The notes under the pieces were generated by a model, which searched no databases, was not told the DNA's origin, and saw nothing but the letters and a program-made list of their open reading frames with translations. Of a stretch of 64,000 nt of DNA, positions 15,455-22,544 are shown one piece after another. Within the stretch, counting starts at the first letter, position 1. Every line of letters starts with the position of its first letter. The DNA comes from an uncultured Bacilli bacterium. Lineage in GTDB: Bacteria; Bacillota_I; Bacilli_A; RF39; UBA660. The translations under genes and the position numbers were made by a program. The DNA lies in assembly GCA_947588765.1 (NCBI GenBank), contig CANPZG010000001.1, forward strand, positions 12,658 through 76,657. The letters are read 5' to 3'.

Positions 15455-16933
15455 ATGGAAAAAGAACAAGTATTGTCTTCAATAGCTAAAAGAGGTAACG
15501 GAGAAATTTATCTTGGGGTAGTAGGAGCAGTTAGAACCGGTAAATCAACATTTATTAAAAGATTTATTGAAAACCTAGTTGTTCCTAATATCTCAGATGA
15601 ATATGAAAAAAAACATTGTTTAGATGAAATTCCTCAAAGTGCCACAGGAAAAACAATTATGACGACTGAACCTAAATTTGTACCATCAAATGGTGCCACA
15701 ATTAAGATCAATGAATTTTCTACCAACATTAAATTAGTTGATTGTGTAGGTTATGTTATTCCTGAAGCTACAGGATTTGAAGATGAAGACGGAAATCCTC
15801 GGATGGTTAAAAGTCCTTGGTTTGAAGATGCAATTCCTTTTGTAGAAGCCGCGGAAATTGGTACGGAAAAAGTTATCAAAGATCATTCTACAATCGGTAT
15901 TGTAGTTACTACCGATGGTTCGTTCGGTGAAATAAAAAGAGAATCTTACATCGATGCAGAACAAAAGGTTATTACCGAATTAAAAGAAATTGGTAAACCT
16001 TTTATCGTAATACTTAATAGTATTCATCCAACAAATAGTGAAACAACAGAACTAGCACGAAGTTTAAGTGAAAATTATGATGTACCAGTGATACCTATTA
16101 GTGCTGAACTCATGAATGAAAAAGAAATCATGGAAATTTTAAAGACGGCTTTATATGAATTCCCAGTTCTTGATATTCAAATAAATATTCCCGAGTGGGT
16201 GCATGTCTTACCAGCCGCGCATATTATAAAGACTCATTATATGGAAAAAATTAAAGAAAGCATCATTAGTGTTGAAAAACTTAAAGATGTTGACTTTATT
16301 TTGGACCATTTCAGTGATTCAGAATATATATCCAAAGCATACATCTCGGATTTAGATGCTGCTACTGGCATCGTTACAGTTAATTTGGAAAGTCCTGATG
16401 AATTATATACTGAAACCTTGAGATCGATTATGGGAGATGCTGCAACTACGAAGGCAGGACTATTAAAGATATTTGCGACATATCAAGAAGGTAAGGAAGA
16501 ATTAGATAATATTAAGTCAGCTTTAAAGATGGCTAAAAGTACAGGGTACGGCATAGTTTATCCAACAATTAAAGAATTGAAATTAGAAACACCGGAATTA
16601 GTTAAACAAGGTAATCGTTACGGAGTTAAACTTAAGGCTGTGGCTTCTAGTATTCATTTGGTTAAAGTTGATGTTGAATCGACATTTGAGCCAATCATTG
16701 GTAGTGAACTTCAATCAAAAGAATTAATAAATCATTTAATGAAAGATTACGAAACTGATGCTTCAAGTATTTGGAAAAGTGAAATATTTGGTCGTAGTTT
16801 AGAAGTAATCGTTCAAGAAGGAATTCAAGCAAAATTAAGTATGATGCCTGATACAACCAGATATAAATTAAAAGATACCGTAACTAAGATTGTAAATAAA
16901 GGTTCTAATACATTAATTGCAATTGTCTTTTAG
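15455..16933 (+). CDS. spoIVA: stage IV sporulation protein A (coat-assembly ATPase)
   Basis: Walker A GVVGAVRTGKSTFIKRF; full-length (492 aa) collinear resemblance to SpoIVA. Confidence 0.9.
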   Translation: MEKEQVLSSIAKRGNGEIYLGVVGAVRTGKSTFIKRFIENLVVPNISDEYEKKHCLDEIPQSATGKTIMTTEPKFVPSNGATIKINEFSTNIKLVDCVGYVIPEATGFEDEDGNPRMVKSPWFEDAIPFVEAAEIGTEKVIKDHSTIGIVVTTDGSFGEIKRESYIDAEQKVITELKEIGKPFIVILNSIHPTNSETTELARSLSENYDVPVIPISAELMNEKEIMEILKTALYEFPVLDIQINIPEWVHVLPAAHIIKTHYMEKIKESIISVEKLKDVDFILDHFSDSEYISKAYISDLDAATGIVTVNLESPDELYTETLRSIMGDAATTKAGLLKIFATYQEGKEELDNIKSALKMAKSTGYGIVYPTIKELKLETPELVKQGNRYGVKLKAVASSIHLVKVDVESTFEPIIGSELQSKELINHLMKDYETDASSIWKSEIFGRSLEVIVQEGIQAKLSMMPDTTRYKLKDTVTKIVNKGSNTLIAIVF

Positions 16934-17498: not shown

Positions 17499-18533
17499 AT
17501 GCGGAAAATAGTGTTGTTAGTTGCAGGATTGTTATTAGTTTTAATTAGTTTTTTATTAAATTATTATACGATGAGTCGTTTATTTTTATTAATAATAGGT
17601 ATCATTATTATTGATATTTATTTCACGGTTAAATATCCTAAAAAAATATTACTATTATTAAGTTTACCAATTTTATTTTTAATATTAACTTATGGTTTAG
17701 ATATATTATTAGTTAAATATTTTAATAGAATACCAATTTATAGTTATGAAGAAAGAAGTAGTGAAAAGTTAAGCGTTTATAATAGTTTTTTCTATCGGAC
17801 TTTTAATTGTAATGGTAAGTTAATTATGGATTATGGTTATAGAAGTAACTATGCTTGTAGTCCGGATGATTTAGATACTTTAGATGTTAATGCCTTATTA
17901 AGTGCGGCAGGTAACTATAATCATAAATTTGTTAAAATTGCTGGTAAAATAAGTAAAGTAAGTGGCATTAATGTTTTAGAACTCGCGGGTTACAATATTG
18001 ATGAAAATAATAAATTAAATGGTTATGTAACATTTAATAAAGATTTAGTTAAAGTTAATACCAATGAAGATTTATCAAGATATCATATTTATGATGAAGT
18101 AGTGGTTATTGGTTTAATTAATAAAATAACAAAGAACGAAAATATAACAATTGATTTAACTAATACTTTAATTATCCCCAGTGATATATATGATACTTAT
18201 GATTTAGAAGTTATCCTTGATAAAGAAAATGGCTTAACTAATTATATTGAAAAAAATAATTTGTATTTGTTAGATATTGATGATATATACATTCATTATG
18301 ATAATAACCATATTTATGAATTAAAGTATTTAATTAATGATAATAGATTAACAATTGATGATTTATTAACCAATAAAGAAAGCAAGGAATTAAAAGATAA
18401 AGATGAAAATGAATATGGAAGAATTTATGAATTAGATAAATTTAATGTTTTAAAATGTAATAATGATAAAACCATATTAATGAATCAAAAAAGTAAAGTA
18501 AATAATGATTTATGTTTAACTGATAATAATTGA
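17499..18533 (+). CDS. hypothetical membrane protein
   Basis: Three N-terminal TM helices, then an Asn/Asp-rich soluble domain. Confidence 0.4.
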   Translation: MRKIVLLVAGLLLVLISFLLNYYTMSRLFLLIIGIIIIDIYFTVKYPKKILLLLSLPILFLILTYGLDILLVKYFNRIPIYSYEERSSEKLSVYNSFFYRTFNCNGKLIMDYGYRSNYACSPDDLDTLDVNALLSAAGNYNHKFVKIAGKISKVSGINVLELAGYNIDENNKLNGYVTFNKDLVKVNTNEDLSRYHIYDEVVVIGLINKITKNENITIDLTNTLIIPSDIYDTYDLEVILDKENGLTNYIEKNNLYLLDIDDIYIHYDNNHIYELKYLINDNRLTIDDLLTNKESKELKDKDENEYGRIYELDKFNVLKCNNDKTILMNQKSKVNNDLCLTDNN

Positions 18534-18763
18534 TTTTTTCAAGTATTTATGTTATATTTTGTATGTAATCGATGAAAAAAGATTTTATATATTGATTTAT
18601 TTTTAGAGAGTTAGTGGTTGGTGGAAACTAATAATAAAAATATATAATGCTACTTTTGGAGATTAATCGGCATAGTCGTTAAAAAAAATAAAGTAAAAGA
18701 AAGGATGGTACCGTGTTTTAACACTCCTTGGTATTAATCCTTTTTTTAAATAAGGAGGAAAAA

Positions 18764-19297
18764 ATGAAAATATTTGTGGTTGCTGGTAAAGCAGGAAGTG
18801 GAAAAGGAGAAGTGGCAAAGTTTATAAAGGAATACTATATTTATAAATTAGAAAATAGTGTCGTTACGCAATATAGTAAATATTTGAAAAATTTTGCAAT
18901 GGAATTAACTGATTGGGATGGTGTTAGTGAAAATAAACCAAGAAAGTTTTTACAAGATTTTGGGTCAACGATAAGAAACTATGATAAAGAATATTTTACT
19001 AAAAGAATGATTGAAGATATTAACATTTATGAGTTAGCGGATGTTAATAATGTTATTATTTCCGATGCTAGAATGCCTGAAGAAATTGAAGAATTAAAAG
19101 AAAACTTTGATGAAGTATATAGTATTTATGTCGAAAATCAATTTGGTCAAAGTAAATTAACAGTTGAAGAACAAGCTCATATTACCGAACTTGCTTTAGA
19201 AAACTATAATGATTTTGATTATACTATTGCTAATGATGGTACAACGGAAAATTTAAAAGATAAAGTATTTAAGTATTTAGAAGGGTTAGAAAAATAA
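18764..19297 (+). CDS. P-loop kinase, phage-type dNMP-kinase-like
   Basis: MKIFVVAGKAGSGKG Walker A and an ISDARMPEEIE lid-like motif. AGGAGG RBS. Its stop overlaps the alaS start (ATAATG). Confidence 0.45.
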   Translation: MKIFVVAGKAGSGKGEVAKFIKEYYIYKLENSVVTQYSKYLKNFAMELTDWDGVSENKPRKFLQDFGSTIRNYDKEYFTKRMIEDINIYELADVNNVIISDARMPEEIEELKENFDEVYSIYVENQFGQSKLTVEEQAHITELALENYNDFDYTIANDGTTENLKDKVFKYLEGLEK

Positions 19298-21060
19298 TGA
19301 AAGATTTAAAACATTGTAATTTAAAAGACTTATATATTGATTTTTTTGTTAGACATAATCATAAACAAATTCCAAGTGCGCCATTAGTTCCTGAAAATGA
19401 TCCTTCTGTTTTATTTAATACAGCGGGAATGCAACCATTAATTCCTTATTTAATGGGCCAAGCTCATCCTTATGGTACAAGATTGTGTAATTATCAAAAA
19501 TGTTTAAGAACAACTGATTTAGATGAAATTGGCGATGCTACCCATCATACATTTTTTGAAATGTTAGGTAATTGGTCTTTAGGGGATTACTTTAAAGATG
19601 AATCCATTTCGTGGAGTTTTGAGTTTTTAACTAAAGATTTAGAAATACCGGTTGAAAGACTTGCTGTTACTGTTTTTAAAGGAAATGATTTAATACCTTT
19701 TGATGAAGTATCATTTAATAAATGGTTAAGTTTAGGTATTCCTAAAGAGAGAATTGCTAAAACCGAAAAAGATAATTTTTGGATTGCTGGTGAATCTGGA
19801 CCATGTGGACCCGATACCGAAATATTTTATTTTCGGAGTAATGAAGAAATTCCAGAAAAGTTTGATCCTGATGATGAACGGTGGGTAGAAATCTGGAATA
19901 ATGTATTTATGCAATATCATAAAGCTAGTGATGGTACAATTACCGAACTACCTAAGAAAAATGTTGACACAGGAATGGGTGTTGAAAGAACTACAGCTAT
20001 TTTAGAAGGAGTTAATGATAACTATCAATCAAGTATTTGGTTAGATGTTATAAAAGAAATCGAAGATATTACGAATTTACCTTATGAAGGTAATGAAAAA
20101 AGTATGCGTATTATTGCCGATCATTTAAGAACAGCGGTCTTTATTAGTGCTGATTATGCGGGCATAAAACCTAGTAATACTGACCAAGGTTATATTTTAA
20201 GAAGATTAATTCGAAGAGCAATTAGACATGCGAAAAAGTTAAATATTGATATAAATAGTAATTGGGAAGAAAGAATAGTTAAAATAATTATTAATAAATA
20301 TGCTGGTTATTATCAAGAACTAAAAGATAATGAAACAACTGTTTATGAAGTATTAAGAAATGAAAAAATCAAATTTAATCGTACCTTAGAAAAAGGTTTA
20401 AGAGAATTTGAAAAGGTTGTTAAAAATAATAACCAAATCGATGATGTTACAGCTTTCCATTTATATGATACTTTTGGTTTTCCAATTGAACTTACGATGG
20501 AACTCGCTGCAGAACGGAATATTTCTGTTGATGTTGAAGGATTTAAAAAAAGATTTAAAGAACATCAAGAATTATCAAGAACGGCTTCCGCGGGTAAATT
20601 TAAAGGTGGTCTAGCCGGTAATGGGGAAATTGAAACGAAATATCATACGGCAACCCATTTATTAAATGCGGCTTTAAAAGTAGTAGTTGCTAATACTGTT
20701 CATCAAAAGGGCAGTAATATTACTAGTGAAAGAATGCGTTTTGATTTTAGTTGTGACCATAAATTGAGTGAAGAAGAAATTAAAAAAACAGAAGATTTAG
20801 TTAATGAATGGATTAATGATGGATTAGATGTTACTGTTAAAGAAATGCCTAAAACAGAAGCTTTAAATAGTGGTGCGGAATGTATGTTTATTGAAAAATA
20901 TCCCGATATGGTAACTGTTTATAGTATTGGCGATATTTCGAAAGAACTATGTGGGGGACCTCATGTTAAAAATACAAAAGAATTAGGCCATTTCAAAATA
21001 ATTAAAGAAGAAAGTTCTTCCGCTGGTGTAAGAAGAATTAAAGCGGTATTGGAAAATTAA
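19297..21060 (+). CDS. alaS: alanine--tRNA ligase, compact form without C-Ala domain
   Basis: Class II AlaRS catalytic core (FNTAGMQP, WIAGESGPCGPDTEIF, DTGMGVER), tRNA-recognition region, then a short editing-type domain with HTATHLL...CGGPH zinc motifs. Ends at 587 aa. Confidence 0.7.
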   Translation: MKDLKHCNLKDLYIDFFVRHNHKQIPSAPLVPENDPSVLFNTAGMQPLIPYLMGQAHPYGTRLCNYQKCLRTTDLDEIGDATHHTFFEMLGNWSLGDYFKDESISWSFEFLTKDLEIPVERLAVTVFKGNDLIPFDEVSFNKWLSLGIPKERIAKTEKDNFWIAGESGPCGPDTEIFYFRSNEEIPEKFDPDDERWVEIWNNVFMQYHKASDGTITELPKKNVDTGMGVERTTAILEGVNDNYQSSIWLDVIKEIEDITNLPYEGNEKSMRIIADHLRTAVFISADYAGIKPSNTDQGYILRRLIRRAIRHAKKLNIDINSNWEERIVKIIINKYAGYYQELKDNETTVYEVLRNEKIKFNRTLEKGLREFEKVVKNNNQIDDVTAFHLYDTFGFPIELTMELAAERNISVDVEGFKKRFKEHQELSRTASAGKFKGGLAGNGEIETKYHTATHLLNAALKVVVANTVHQKGSNITSERMRFDFSCDHKLSEEEIKKTEDLVNEWINDGLDVTVKEMPKTEALNSGAECMFIEKYPDMVTVYSIGDISKELCGGPHVKNTKELGHFKIIKEESSSAGVRRIKAVLEN

Positions 21061-21062
21061 AG

Positions 21063-21542
21063 ATGAAAGATATTAATTTTGTTGAAAAAGATGAAGTTTT
21101 TAACTATCGGGTTGGTGCTATAATTCGCAAGGAAAACAAAATTCTAGTTCAAAAATCAGATAAAGTAGCTCATGCTACCATGCTCGGCGGTAGGGTATCA
21201 TTTAATGAAGATTCGAAAGAAGCTATACTTAGAGAAATTAAAGAAGAAACTGGTTATGATGCGATAATAAAAAAAGAAATATGTTTTATTGAAAATTTCT
21301 TTACTTCTAGTTATAATCATAAACGCTATCACGAAATCTTAATTGTTTATGAATTAGCTTTTTTAGATGAATTACCATATACTTTAGAACAAATACCGGC
21401 GAAGGAAGAAAAGAATAAATACCTAGAATATAATTGGATTGATATTGATGAATTAAAACAACAAGCATTTCATCCGTTTATTGTTTTAGATATACTAGAT
21501 TCTGATAGAATCAAACATATAATTTTTAAGGATAATACATAA
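21063..21542 (+). CDS. NUDIX hydrolase
   Basis: Nudix box GGRVSFNEDSKEAILREIKEETGY. Confidence 0.65.
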   Translation: MKDINFVEKDEVFNYRVGAIIRKENKILVQKSDKVAHATMLGGRVSFNEDSKEAILREIKEETGYDAIIKKEICFIENFFTSSYNHKRYHEILIVYELAFLDELPYTLEQIPAKEEKNKYLEYNWIDIDELKQQAFHPFIVLDILDSDRIKHIIFKDNT

Positions 21543-21674
21543 AAATATTATTCTTTTTTAATGCTTTAATAAAATTTTTTAAAAAAAATTAACAATTTTT
21601 ACACAGTTCGACAAATTTTTCACTTTTGATGTGCTATAGTGATTATGTTTCTTGGGATCGGGGGTGATAGAAAC

Positions 21675-22544
21675 ATGATAACAGAAACAGCATTTGTTCC
21701 TACAAGTTTAAAAAATGATATGTTATTTAAAGAAGTATTAGCTCATCCACATAATAAAGATAAGTTAATATATTTTTTATCTTGCTTTATGGATTATAAT
21801 GAAGAATACTTAAAGAAAAGTAATTTAAAAGTTACTTATGAAAGACAGTTACCTAAAGCTAATGTTAAAAATAAAACTTTTCGAGGAGATATAATAGTAG
21901 AATTTGATAATATCACTATCAATCTAGAATGTTATTCAAGGTTTGTTGATGAATACTTAAAGAAATCTCTAGCCTATATTATGCGATTATATTCAACAAA
22001 CCTAGATAGGGGATAAAGTTATGAAAAACTAAAAACCGTATTAGGGATAAATTTTATAGATAATGTAAGAAGTAGTAAATTATCAAAAGAAATGTATAAT
22101 AACGTATCATTAGTATTAAACTATAAAAATGAGCTATATAATAGTATAAAATTAGAGATATATCGACTTGACATAGCAAAAGAGACACCATATAATAAAA
22201 GTGACAAAAAATTAAGATGGTTGAAGTTTATAGGAGCCGATAATTATGAAGAAAGGAAGATTATAGCAAAGGGGGATAAGAAACTTATGGAATTAAACGA
22301 ATGGACACAAGGATATATAACAGATGCCAATACAAGAAAGTTTTTTGCAGATTGGGATAGGAAAATAACATATGGTATAGGCTTAGAAGATGGTGAAATA
22401 AAAGGTAAAAAATTAGGCCAATTAGAAAGTACAAATTCTATAGCCAAAGAAATGATAAAGAAAAGCTATTCTACTAAAGAAATTCAAGAAATAACCAAAT
22501 TGTCAACACAAGAAATAAAAGAACTCAAAGAAGAAATGAAATAA
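21675..22544 (+). pseudogene. Rpn/YhgA-like PD-(D/E)XK nuclease with a single in-frame TAA
   Basis: The N-terminal part (FRGDIIVEFDNITINLECYS) and C-terminal part (KLRWLKF...EIQEITKLSTQEIKEL) are in the same frame. Only one stop (TAA 22014-22016) separates them. Confidence 0.5.

What the first reader, a model, noticed from the sequence alone, without database searches (positions are those of the whole stretch)
19297..21060. Compact 587-aa alanyl-tRNA synthetase lacking the C-Ala domain, co-arranged with a dNMP-kinase-like gene and a NUDIX gene
The ORF has the full AlaRS aminoacylation core and tRNA-recognition region. These are followed directly by a ~150-aa editing-type domain with the HxxxH...CxxxH zinc motifs (HTATHLL...CGGPH). 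It then stops, with no beta-barrel linker expansion and no C-Ala oligomerisation domain, whereas bacterial AlaRS is usually ~870 aa. Its start overlaps the stop of a phage-type P-loop kinase-like gene, and a NUDIX hydrolase follows. It may be the organism's only AlaRS (a minimal form) or a paralog with altered function.
Basis: partly seen in the sequence, partly recalled or inferred. Interest (0 to 1): 0.55.

Follow-up and report, generated by a model that had tools for sequence, protein, structure and literature searches.

The report
Small alanyl-tRNA synthetase behind alanine T-box
This is an intact, short form of the enzyme that loads alanine onto its tRNA; the short form is already catalogued and normal for this group of uncultured gut bacteria, and its position and regulation indicate it is their everyday working copy rather than an oddity.

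Summary
ORF 19297-21060 encodes a 587-aa AlaRS with the aminoacylation domain, the tRNA-recognition domain and an AlaX-S-like editing core. It lacks the ~110-aa beta-barrel and the ~190-aa C-Ala domain, and no remnant of either lies downstream.

It is not an anomaly. The protein matches the ~595-aa NCBIfam equivalog NF002436 end to end. A 2023 preprint already names this architecture "small-AlaRS". All 80 best species-level relatives, mostly uncultured gut Bacilli MAGs, have the same length, and NCBI annotates the form in Patescibacteria, Clostridia MAGs and Methanomassiliicoccaceae.

Two new lines of evidence indicate the housekeeping enzyme.
- In related species the gene sits in the canonical Bacillota alaS slot: RecD2, AI-2E, alaS, IreB, RuvX, DUF1292.
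- A reduced T-box riboswitch with an alanine (GCU) specifier, which Rfam's threshold missed, precedes the operon at 18563-18751 and in 34 other species.

The kinase-like gene is a conserved, translationally coupled partner inside this operon (47 of 80 species). The NUDIX gene is incidental (0 of 80).

A second alaS elsewhere in the genome could not be excluded directly. Verdict: new member of a known kind, modest interest.

The parts
18530..18558 (+). Promoter-like site (TTGATT, 17 nt spacer, TATATT, with TG before the -10) immediately upstream of the leader
   Evidence: Consensus scan. This is a pattern match only. The number of such sites in the region is not above the shuffle expectation, so it is a weak inference based on position.
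18563..18751 (+). Reduced T-box riboswitch leader lacking Stem II. Features: AGAGA box at 18605-18609; distal-loop GGUUGGUGGAAA; specifier codon GCU (Ala) at 18649-18651 followed by A; T-box core GGAUGGUACCGUG at 18703-18715, whose UGGU matches discriminator A73; terminator hairpin plus U-run ending about 18748.
   Evidence: Rfam RF00230 scores 60.9 bits, E=3.2e-13, when only 18540-18770 is searched. That is below the gathering score of 93, so it was missed. The ortholog in L019 passes the gathering score at 97.7 bits. My own model R1 scores 158.5 bits, E=5e-24. GCT is invariant in 23 aligned leaders. 95% of cells are paired, 11 of 15 pairs show compensatory changes, and 0 of 500 shuffles reach the observed score. 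The terminator folds at -17.9 kcal/mol, z=-4.07.
18764..19297 (+). DNMK-like P-loop kinase gene (177 aa, Walker A GKAGSGKG). RBS AAGGAGG lies at 18752-18758. The stop overlaps the alaS start by 1 nt. Substrate unknown.
   Evidence: Pfam DNMK PF21448 39.6 bits (cut-off 27.1) and P-mevalo_kinase 34.3 bits. PHROG 139 dNMP kinase, E=7e-31. AF2 pLDDT 91.9. Best PDB folds are phosphomevalonate kinase 7xnd/3ch4 (TM 0.71-0.74) and T4 dNMP kinase 1dek. The gene sits directly upstream of small alaS in 47 of 80 species at 37-78% identity. The ENA gene call gives 177 aa.
19297..20589 (+). Small alaS, aa 1-431: class II aminoacylation domain plus tRNA-recognition (ATL) domain
   Evidence: PF01411 aa 9-435. 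E. coli AlaRS N-terminal fragment 3hxu, E=1e-94, over aa 8-431. R71, W162, N201, D224, G226, N294 and D391 are conserved.
20590..20637 (+). Short Gly-rich linker (aa 432-447, ASAGKFKGGLAGNGEI) that replaces the ~110-aa beta-barrel of canonical AlaRS
   Evidence: Alignment A1, columns 469-600. pLDDT is below 50 for aa 427-441 in the AF2 model (the model as a whole is low confidence).
20638..21060 (+). Small alaS, aa 448-587 plus stop: editing core of AlaX-S type with a zinc site (H450, H454, C552, H556). It ends at GVRRIKAVLEN; there is no C-Ala.
   Evidence: NCBIfam AlaXM positions 96-233 of 234 match aa 448-585. PDB AlaX-S 1v4p/1wxo matches aa 445-572. PF07973 covers aa 539-581. Q470, G472, S473, R579 and R580 are invariant.
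21063..21542 (+). NUDIX hydrolase gene (159 aa), 2 nt after the alaS stop. It is possibly co-transcribed in this organism but is not a conserved partner.
   Evidence: PF00293 48.9 bits. It was found next to small alaS in 0 of 80 related loci, and only in a contig carrying the identical AlaRS protein, L081.

Best explanation
The locus is a T-box-controlled operon: promoter, alanine T-box leader, DNMK-like kinase gene, small alaS (with NUDIX following in this organism only). It most likely encodes the organism's working, and probably only, alanyl-tRNA synthetase, of the 'small-AlaRS' type.

**Proposed mechanism** (each step marked shown or inferred):
1. *Regulation.* When tRNA-Ala is poorly charged, its GGC/UGC-class anticodon pairs with the GCU specifier and its free NCCA end pairs with the UGGU of the T-box core. 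This stabilises the antiterminator over the terminator hairpin and allows read-through into the operon. The leader features, the specifier and the covariation are shown. The switching itself is inferred from the well-studied T-box mechanism.
2. *Aminoacylation.* The enzyme activates alanine and charges tRNA-Ala through the acceptor stem only, reading G3:U70 with the conserved Asn294/Asp391 pair. Residue conservation is shown; activity is inferred.
3. *Editing.* The AlaX-S-like zinc-dependent editing core is tethered by a 16-residue Gly-rich linker and clears Ser-tRNA-Ala. The motifs are shown. The specificity is inferred from archaeal AlaX-S, which lacks the barrel and, as far as I recall, edits Ser- but not Gly-tRNA-Ala.
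4. *Consequences of the missing domains.* Without C-Ala the enzyme should be monomeric and should not grip the tRNA elbow. This is inferred from E. coli truncation studies and from the Tupanvirus mini-AlaRS.
5. *The kinase.* It is co-expressed and translationally coupled, but its role is unknown. The simplest reading is a nucleotide-type kinase riding in a housekeeping operon.
For: **It is an AlaRS of the small type.**
- NF002436 766 bits (cut-off 529) over profile positions 5-593 of 595; TIGR00344 617 bits (cut-off 457).
- Catalytic, G3:U70-reading and editing residues are conserved.

**It is standard for the clade and strongly constrained.**
- 120 of 120 best clusters are 577-590 aa at 80-99% identity.
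- 80 of 80 species loci are full length at 69-85% identity.

**It sits where canonical alaS sits.**
- 14 of the 80 loci carry RecD2, IreB, RuvX or DUF1292 near the small alaS. Together they give the order RecD2, AI-2E, [kinase], small alaS, IreB, RuvX, DUF1292.
- A canonical 875-aa AlaRS sits in AI-2E, T-box, alaS, IreB, RuvX, DUF1292, YceG.
- The B. subtilis block yrrL/yrrK/yrzL/recD is listed in PMC3814617.

**It is regulated like a housekeeping alaS.**
- An Ala-specifier T-box lies directly upstream of the operon in the window and in 34 other species.
- Other T-boxes in the same loci carry other specifiers and precede other genes.

**The small form looks like a housekeeping gene elsewhere.**
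- In Patescibacteria it lies between mnmA and infA-rpsM-rpsK-rpsD-rpoA.
- NCBI names small forms 'alanine--tRNA ligase' in several phyla.
Against: - No whole genome was visible, so a second long alaS, a free-standing C-Ala, an AlaX or a DTD elsewhere cannot be excluded.
- No biochemistry exists for any small-AlaRS in the literature I could search.
- In E. coli, removing C-Ala weakens tRNA binding and charging (PMC10036535). How a bacterial enzyme with ordinary L-shaped tRNA compensates is therefore unknown.
- The window's own T-box scores below Rfam's gathering threshold and lacks Stem II.
- In the window organism the ancestral neighbours (AI-2E, IreB, RuvX) are absent from the 64 kb. Positional orthology is therefore shown in relatives, not here.
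- The AF2 model of the enzyme was poor.
Confidence: 0.8

Rival explanations
1. Accessory paralog. The genome also has a canonical ~870-aa AlaRS elsewhere, and the small enzyme is a second copy with a specialised or back-up role, for example a different tRNA-Ala isoacceptor, stress conditions, or supply of Ala-tRNA for cell-wall synthesis.
For: - Only 64 kb of the genome is visible.
- The window protein is closer to small forms of other phyla (47-50% catalytic, 55-60% editing identity) than to any long form (37-46% and 41-53%), which allows acquisition by transfer.
- In one Clostridia MAG the small gene sits in a non-canonical context after ilv genes.
Against: - In relatives the small gene occupies the one canonical alaS slot and carries the Ala T-box.
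- It is present at full length in every one of the 80 best species loci and is highly conserved.
- It passes both alaS equivalog cut-offs.
- No long alaS, barrel or C-Ala fragment appears in about 1.2 Mb of flanking sequence from 80 genomes. That sequence covers only 10 kb on each side, so this is weak evidence.
Confidence: 0.1
2. Split or trans-complemented enzyme. The missing beta-barrel and/or C-Ala functions are supplied by separate proteins encoded elsewhere: a free C-Ala/DHHA1 protein, an AlaX-M or AlaX-L, or the co-transcribed P-loop protein acting as a tRNA-binding helper. This would resemble the split AlaRS of Nanoarchaeum equitans.
For: - The kinase-like gene is translationally coupled to alaS and shares its Ala T-box in many species.
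- Architectures with the barrel lost but C-Ala kept exist (P0178), so the modules are separable.
- A split AlaRS has precedent (PMC10036535).
Against: - The slot between the leader and alaS is filled in other species by a bona fide cytidylate kinase (256 bits to PF02224) or an AAA_18 kinase. In seven species it is empty. That fits hitch-hiking nucleotide kinases better than an obligate AlaRS subunit.
- The kinase model is a plain NMP-kinase fold with no extra RNA-binding module.
- No C-Ala-like gene lies within 10 kb in the 80 genomes.
Confidence: 0.07
3. Artefact: a truncated or frameshifted canonical alaS, or a mis-assembled contig.
For: None beyond the unusual length.
Against: - The same boundaries recur in 80 independent species genomes and in thousands of metagenomic proteins.
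- The internal deletion is in frame and the ends are conserved.
- The next gene starts 2 nt after the stop, and no remnant exists in any frame.
Confidence: 0.01

Closest known systems
small-AlaRS subgroup (bioRxiv 10.1101/2023.05.29.542759) = NCBIfam NF002436 / PRK01584 'alanine--tRNA ligase', ~595 aa
   Same: The three-domain architecture is identical: catalytic, ATL/tRNA-recognition and editing domains, with no cradle-loop barrel and no C-Ala. The window protein matches the NF002436 profile end to end above its cut-off. It groups with small forms from Patescibacteria, Clostridia MAGs and Methanomassiliicoccaceae.
   Different: The preprint reports the subgroup from CPR bacteria, Thermoplasmatota, DPANN and Asgard archaea. 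It does not mention the large gut Bacilli clade seen here, the canonical-locus position or the Ala T-box. No member has been characterised biochemically.
Canonical bacterial AlaRS (E. coli or B. subtilis type, ~875 aa; TIGR00344)
   Same: The aminoacylation and tRNA-recognition domains are the same (E=1e-94 to E. coli 3hxu), as are the catalytic and G3:U70-reading residues and the editing zinc motifs. In Bacillota the genomic slot and the T-box regulation are also the same.
   Different: It lacks the ~110-aa beta-barrel and the ~190-aa coiled coil plus C-Ala (DHHA1). It is therefore predicted to be monomeric and to make no contact with the tRNA elbow.
AlaX-S free-standing editing protein (P. 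horikoshii PH0574; PDB 1v4p/1wxo)
   Same: The editing module is the minimal core without the N-terminal barrel and carries the HxxxH/CxxxH zinc site (AlaXM positions 96-233).
   Different: Here it is fused in cis to a synthetase. Its substrate range (Ser only, or Ser plus Gly) is untested.
Tupanvirus mini-AlaRS and C. elegans mitochondrial AlaRS (PMC10036535, PMC8887476)
   Same: These are natural AlaRSs that work without a functional C-Ala and rely on acceptor-stem recognition.
   Different: The Tupanvirus enzyme also lacks the editing domain and the conserved N/D residues. The C. elegans enzyme serves T-arm-less tRNAs and keeps the barrel and editing domains. The window protein keeps the editing core and the N/D pair, and presumably serves ordinary L-shaped tRNA.
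T-box leader (Rfam RF00230), alanine class
   Same: It has the AGAGA box, the distal loop, a specifier loop with GCU followed by a purine, the T-box core, and alternative terminator and antiterminator structures. It lies upstream of an aaRS gene.
   Different: It is a reduced form without Stem II and scores below Rfam's gathering threshold in the window. It controls an operon whose first gene is a nucleotide-type kinase rather than alaS itself.

Membership tests
Alanyl-tRNA synthetase (class IIc; TIGR00344 / NF002436) | Scores above the curated equivalog cut-offs | tested here: met
   NF002436 766.3 bits against a cut-off of 529. TIGR00344 616.9 bits against 457.
Alanyl-tRNA synthetase (class IIc; TIGR00344 / NF002436) | Active-site residues for alanine and ATP (E. 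coli R69, W170, N212, D235, G237) | tested here: met
   R71, W162, N201, D224 and G226 are conserved.
Alanyl-tRNA synthetase (class IIc; TIGR00344 / NF002436) | Asn/Asp pair that reads G3:U70 (E. coli N303, D400) | tested here: met
   N294 is invariant. D391 is present in the window protein and in all 30 close relatives.
Alanyl-tRNA synthetase (class IIc; TIGR00344 / NF002436) | Charges tRNA-Ala with alanine | not testable with these tools
   This needs an aminoacylation assay or complementation. No tRNA-Ala gene lies in the window or the loci.
small-AlaRS subgroup | Catalytic, ATL and editing domains present | tested here: met
small-AlaRS subgroup | Cradle-loop (beta) barrel absent | tested here: met
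   Only 16 residues lie between the tRNA-recognition domain and the editing core. Alignment A1 shows a ~110-aa gap relative to long forms. PF01411 matches only up to position 436 of 552.
small-AlaRS subgroup | C-Ala (DHHA1) absent | tested here: met
   No PF02272 hit. The protein ends 7 residues after GVRRIKA. There is no remnant downstream.
small-AlaRS subgroup | Groups with other small forms rather than with long forms | tested here: met
   Shown by the NJ tree of the catalytic domain and by pairwise identities. These are distance methods only, with no ML tree.
Prototype four-domain AlaRS | Beta-barrel and C-Ala domains present | tested here: not met
T-box riboswitch (RF00230) | Reaches Rfam's gathering score | tested here: not met
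   The window scores 60.9 bits against 93. The orthologous leader in L019 scores 97.7 bits.
T-box riboswitch (RF00230) | Specifier loop codon, conserved T-box core with UGGN, and a terminator/antiterminator alternative | tested here: met
   GCU-A is invariant. The core is GGAUGGUACC. The antiterminator helices covary, and a terminator hairpin with a U-run is present.
T-box riboswitch (RF00230) | tRNA-dependent read-through | not testable with these tools
   This needs in vitro transcription or a reporter assay.
DNMK-type P-loop kinase (PF21448) | Pfam gathering score, Walker A motif and NMP-kinase fold | tested here: met
   39.6 bits against 27.1. Walker A is GKAGSGKG. Foldseek matches 7xnd, 3ch4 and 1dek with TM 0.71-0.74.
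DNMK-type P-loop kinase (PF21448) | Phosphorylates dNMPs | not testable with these tools
   The substrate is unknown. The equally good match to phosphomevalonate kinase leaves it open.

The most novel reading that the evidence does not exclude
The DNMK-like P-loop protein may be a functional partner of the small AlaRS rather than a passenger. It shares the alanine T-box and is translationally coupled to alaS. It could compensate for the lost C-Ala or barrel, or act on a product of alanine or serine mischarging. A second possibility concerns origin. The Bacillota lineage seen here keeps the ancestral locus and T-box, so it may be where the small-AlaRS family arose before spreading by gene transfer to CPR bacteria and archaea.
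Probability: 0.08. Interest if true: 0.6.

Novelty: new member of a known kind. Interest (0 to 1): 0.3.

Why it matters
The experimental AlaRS literature still states that the four-domain prototype is conserved throughout biology, and it treats C-Ala as the main tRNA-binding module (PMC10036535, PMC8887476).

This locus belongs to a large, abundant clade of gut bacteria. At least 80 species were inspected, and hundreds of further matches were found. In this clade a three-domain enzyme appears to be the regular alaS, complete with alanine T-box control.

That gives a convenient, ordinary-tRNA bacterial system for two questions:
- How does AlaRS charge and proofread without the beta-barrel and C-Ala?
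- Does Gly-tRNA-Ala editing then fall to other factors?

It also shows that Rfam's T-box threshold misses reduced T-boxes in AT-rich genomes.

None of this changes the classification. The architecture is already catalogued, so the finding is confirmatory rather than surprising.

Tried and rejected
- **Frameshift or truncation.** Rejected: no barrel or C-Ala remnant in any frame, and the boundaries are identical in 80 species.
- **NUDIX as a functional partner.** Rejected: 0 of 80 loci.
- **'Phage-type' kinase implying a prophage.** Rejected: the neighbours are chromosomal housekeeping genes (SpoIVA, HU, Der, WhiA), and the kinase is a conserved operon member.
- **Rfam scans.** Scans at the gathering threshold and at E<=1 on 4.4 kb found no T-box. 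That was a false negative, resolved by a narrow search and a clade-specific model.
- **tRNA-Ala genes.** I looked for them to inspect G3:U70 and the elbow. There are none in the window or in the 80 loci.
- **Cluster member look-up for organism names.** It returned no names.
- **Literature searches.**
  - For a bacterial C-Ala-less AlaRS in Firmicutes, Patescibacteria or spirochaetes: nothing relevant except the small-AlaRS paragraph.
  - My recollection that Borrelia AlaRS is 594 aa, and that PRK01584 derives from spirochaetes, could not be verified and is not used as evidence.
  - A search for BSU27410 found nothing. The canonical gene order was instead verified from the long-form locus L090.
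- **AF2 model of the small AlaRS.** It came out poor (pLDDT 68, pTM 0.47), so I ran no fold search and draw no inter-domain conclusions.
- **Model R1 in other lineages.** It found no leader at the Clostridia MAG or Patescibacteria small-alaS loci. This is uninformative because the model is clade-specific.
- **Ancestral neighbours in the window.** I searched the window for AI-2E, IreB, RuvX, DUF1292, RecD2, Cmk and others. None was found, so the module has been relocated in this organism.
Full report
**Observation**

The ORF at 19297-21060 (+) is real and encodes 587 aa. Pfam places tRNA-synt_2c on aa 9-435 but uses only profile positions 2-436 of 552. It places tRNA_SAD on aa 539-581 and finds no DHHA1/C-Ala domain.

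An alignment with long and short relatives (A1) shows two clean deletions relative to ~875-aa enzymes:
- about 110 aa, the beta-barrel, between the end of the tRNA-recognition domain (…HQELSRT) and the start of the editing core (ASAGKFKGGL…);
- everything after GVRRIKAV, that is the coiled coil and C-Ala.

The stop codon is followed 2 nt later by the start of the NUDIX gene. tblastn with barrel and C-Ala segments of ten long forms finds nothing in the window or in 80 related loci. The only hits come from one query, P0178, which itself lacks the barrel, so its segment is editing core. A frameshift or truncation artefact is therefore excluded.

**Is the enzyme intact?**

Yes, by every sequence criterion available.
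- The N-terminal 431 aa align with the E. coli AlaRS catalytic fragment at E=1e-94.
- The residues equivalent to E. coli R69, W170, N212, D235, G237, N303 and D400 are conserved as R71, W162, N201, D224, G226, N294 and D391. The last two are the G3:U70 readers.
- In the editing core, H450/H454, Q470, G472, S473, C552/H556 and R579/R580 are conserved.
- The editing module corresponds to positions 96-233 of AlaX-M and to the whole of AlaX-S. It is the minimal core without the barrel.

**Is it unusual?**

Not for its lineage, and not for the databases.
- The protein matches NCBIfam NF002436 (PRK01584), an 'alanine--tRNA ligase' equivalog of 595 positions, over positions 5-593. The score is 766 bits against a cut-off of 529. 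It also passes TIGR00344.
- The 120 best protein clusters are all 577-590 aa at 80-99% identity.
- A scan of one genome per species returned at least 595 related stretches. The best 80 are all full-length small forms at 69-85% identity. Most are labelled uncultured gut Bacilli, from rabbit, mouse, human and ruminant samples, and they include Clostridium sp. CAG:609.
- In an exhaustive search of 50%-identity representatives, about half of the best 150 are small forms (560-660 aa). These cluster together on the catalytic domain.
- NCBI names small forms 'alanine--tRNA ligase' in Patescibacteria, Nealsonbacteria, Clostridia/Eubacteriales MAGs, a Deltaproteobacteria MAG and Methanomassiliicoccaceae.
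- A 2023 preprint (10.1101/2023.05.29.542759) describes exactly this architecture and names it small-AlaRS. It reports the form from CPR bacteria and several archaeal groups and gives no biochemistry.

The mainstream AlaRS literature nevertheless says the prototype is conserved throughout biology. It lists only C. elegans mitochondrial AlaRS, the Tupanvirus mini-AlaRS and the split N. equitans enzyme as exceptions.

**Housekeeping gene or paralog?**

I could not see the whole genome, so this rests on two indirect but independent lines of evidence.

*First line: position.* Across the 80 loci the gene directly upstream is usually a small P-loop kinase, and before that an AI-2E family permease. 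Fourteen loci carry RecD2, IreB, RuvX or DUF1292 near the small alaS. Together they give the order RecD2 (YrrC), AI-2E, [kinase], small alaS, (0-4 genes), IreB (the YrzL family), RuvX (YrrK), DUF1292 (YrzB).

This is the canonical Bacillota alaS neighbourhood. A standard 875-aa AlaRS with C-Ala (P0227, locus L090) sits in rarA, mnmA, AI-2E, alaS, IreB, RuvX, DUF1292, YceG, Udk. Other long forms show mnmA, alaS, RuvX. [quoted passage not shown] That alaS is BSU27410 is from my memory only.

*Second line: regulation.* A T-box leader with an alanine specifier precedes the operon.
- Rfam at its gathering threshold found none in the window, but it did find one in L019, directly upstream of the kinase gene.
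- A motif search showed the same T-box core upstream of the kinase in the window and in 22 other loci.
- A narrow Rfam search then matched window 18563-18731 at 60.9 bits, E=3e-13, with Stem II missing and GCU aligned at the specifier position.
- In an alignment of 23 leaders GCT is invariant.
- The helices covary strongly: 95% of cells are paired, 11 of 15 pairs show compensatory changes, and 0 of 500 shuffles reach the observed score. Slid controls give 35-56% paired.
- The window copy folds into a terminator hairpin (-17.9 kcal/mol, z=-4.1) followed by a U-run, then an RBS, then ATG 18764.
- A clade-specific covariance model found the GCU leader in 35 of 81 sequences. It always lies directly upstream of [kinase(s)]-alaS, or of alaS itself in the seven species without a kinase. 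The other T-boxes it hit have other specifiers and precede other genes.
- The syntenic long-form alaS in L090 has an Ala (GCC) T-box in the same place.

A gene that sits in the alaS slot and is switched on by uncharged tRNA-Ala is most simply the cell's AlaRS.

**The neighbours named in the finding**

*The kinase-like gene* is a genuine conserved partner. It is found directly upstream of small alaS in 47 of 80 species at only 37-78% identity. In the window its stop overlaps the alaS start.

Its true start is probably ATG 18764 (177 aa, as in the ENA gene call), because the T-box terminator occupies the region of the longer ORF.

It belongs to the DNMK/phosphomevalonate-kinase branch of NMP-kinase-like P-loop proteins:
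- Pfam and PHROG hits;
- a confident AF2 model, pLDDT 92;
- best structural matches 7xnd/3ch4 and T4 gp1 1dek.

NCBI annotates it only as a hypothetical protein of Bacilli.

In other species the same slot holds a bona fide cytidylate kinase or an AAA_18 kinase, sometimes two kinases in a row. I therefore read these as nucleotide-type kinases riding in a housekeeping operon. Why they sit behind an alanine T-box is unexplained.

*The NUDIX gene* is next to small alaS in none of the 80 related loci. It is followed by a split Rpn/PDDEXK_2 gene. It looks like a local rearrangement. Consistent with that, the window lacks the ancestral neighbours altogether.

**Mechanism**

*Shown:*
- an intact synthetase active site;
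- the acceptor-stem-reading residues;
- a minimal zinc-dependent editing core joined by a 16-residue Gly-rich linker;
- an Ala T-box with alternative terminator and antiterminator structures;
- translational coupling to the kinase gene.

*Inferred from established knowledge:*
- The enzyme recognises tRNA-Ala through G3:U70 alone.
- It is monomeric and does not bind the tRNA elbow. C-Ala provides both dimerisation and elbow binding in E. coli, and a 1-700 fragment is monomeric yet active (PMC4649089 abstract).
- Its editing resembles AlaX-S, which in my recollection clears Ser- but not Gly-tRNA-Ala. Gly-tRNA-Ala would then be left to DTD, if one is present.

*Not tested:* activity, oligomeric state, editing range, and whether anything compensates for the lost tRNA affinity.

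**Origin**

The window protein is closer to small forms from other phyla than to long forms, including the syntenic Bacillota one:

| Compared with | Catalytic domain identity | Editing domain identity |
|---|---|---|
| Small forms of other phyla | 45-50% | 55-60% |
| Long forms | 37-46% | 41-53% |

Together with the retained ancestral locus and T-box, this allows two readings. The family may have arisen in place within a Bacillota lineage and then spread horizontally. Alternatively, the small gene may have replaced the long one in situ. Distance methods on unlabelled sequences cannot decide between them.

**Verdict**

The feature is a new member of a known, already annotated kind. The additions from this analysis are:
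- the clade-wide distribution in gut Bacilli;
- the positional orthology with canonical alaS;
- the overlooked alanine T-box;
- the kinase slot inside that operon.

Interest is modest.

Noticed in passing
window 18563-18751; also L001, L002, L007, L009-L012, L014-L016, L019-L023, L025, L028, L030, L032-L034, L037, L039, L041, L043, L045, L047, L061-L063, L066, L068, L075 and L008 (partial): Reduced alanine T-box leaders, many without Stem II, fall below Rfam's gathering score in these AT-rich genomes. Standard annotation would miss them: only 1 of the 7 loci scanned at the gathering threshold passed for this leader.
   Followed up: yes
Between the T-box leader and small alaS in L012, L039, L045, L047, L061, L068, L050, L006, L057 and others; window 18764-19297: Three unrelated small P-loop kinase families occupy the same slot inside the alanine T-box operon, sometimes two in tandem: DNMK-like, cytidylate kinase, and AAA_18/CoaE-like. 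Why nucleotide-type kinases should be controlled by tRNA-Ala charging is unexplained.
   Followed up: partly
Proteins P0123, P0125, P0181 (from; not in the window): These small-AlaRS-like proteins have a whole extra domain inserted inside the synthetase: Ham1/ITPase, histidine phosphatase, or alpha/beta-hydrolase. They could be real insertions or chimeric gene calls.
   Followed up: no
Proteins P0178, P0229, P0214 (from; not in the window): An intermediate AlaRS architecture of 773-814 aa. The beta-barrel is missing, as in small-AlaRS. For P0178, Pfam shows that the DHHA1-type C-Ala is retained. For P0229 and P0214 this is inferred only from their length and alignment span. If so, the two deletions are separable.
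   Followed up: partly
window 21639-22016 and 22092-22544: A PD-(D/E)XK / Rpn-family nuclease-transposase is split into two adjacent ORFs. The N-terminal part hits PF12784 and the C-terminal part hits TIGR01784 and HTH_Rpn_C. It is probably a disrupted gene marking the rearrangement that brought NUDIX next to alaS.
   Followed up: partly
window 15455-16933 (SpoIVA); L081 3576-3818 (SpoVIF); L081 13646-14560 (WhiA): Sporulation genes are present in this ~27% GC uncultured gut 'Bacilli' lineage. Several of its relatives are labelled Tenericutes or Erysipelotrichaceae in public records.
   Followed up: no
L084 4851-11131 (Patescibacteria) and L082 (Clostridia MAG GCA_050952525.1): In Patescibacteria the small alaS lies between mnmA and infA-rpsM-rpsK-rpsD-rpoA-rplQ, a core translation context. 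In one Clostridia MAG it follows ilvD/ilvB-like genes, which is not a canonical context, so its status there (sole gene or second copy) is open.
   Followed up: partly
window 17499-18533: A 344-aa predicted membrane protein with no Pfam hit, absent from all 80 related loci, occupies the place where relatives have the AI-2E permease upstream of the operon.
   Followed up: no
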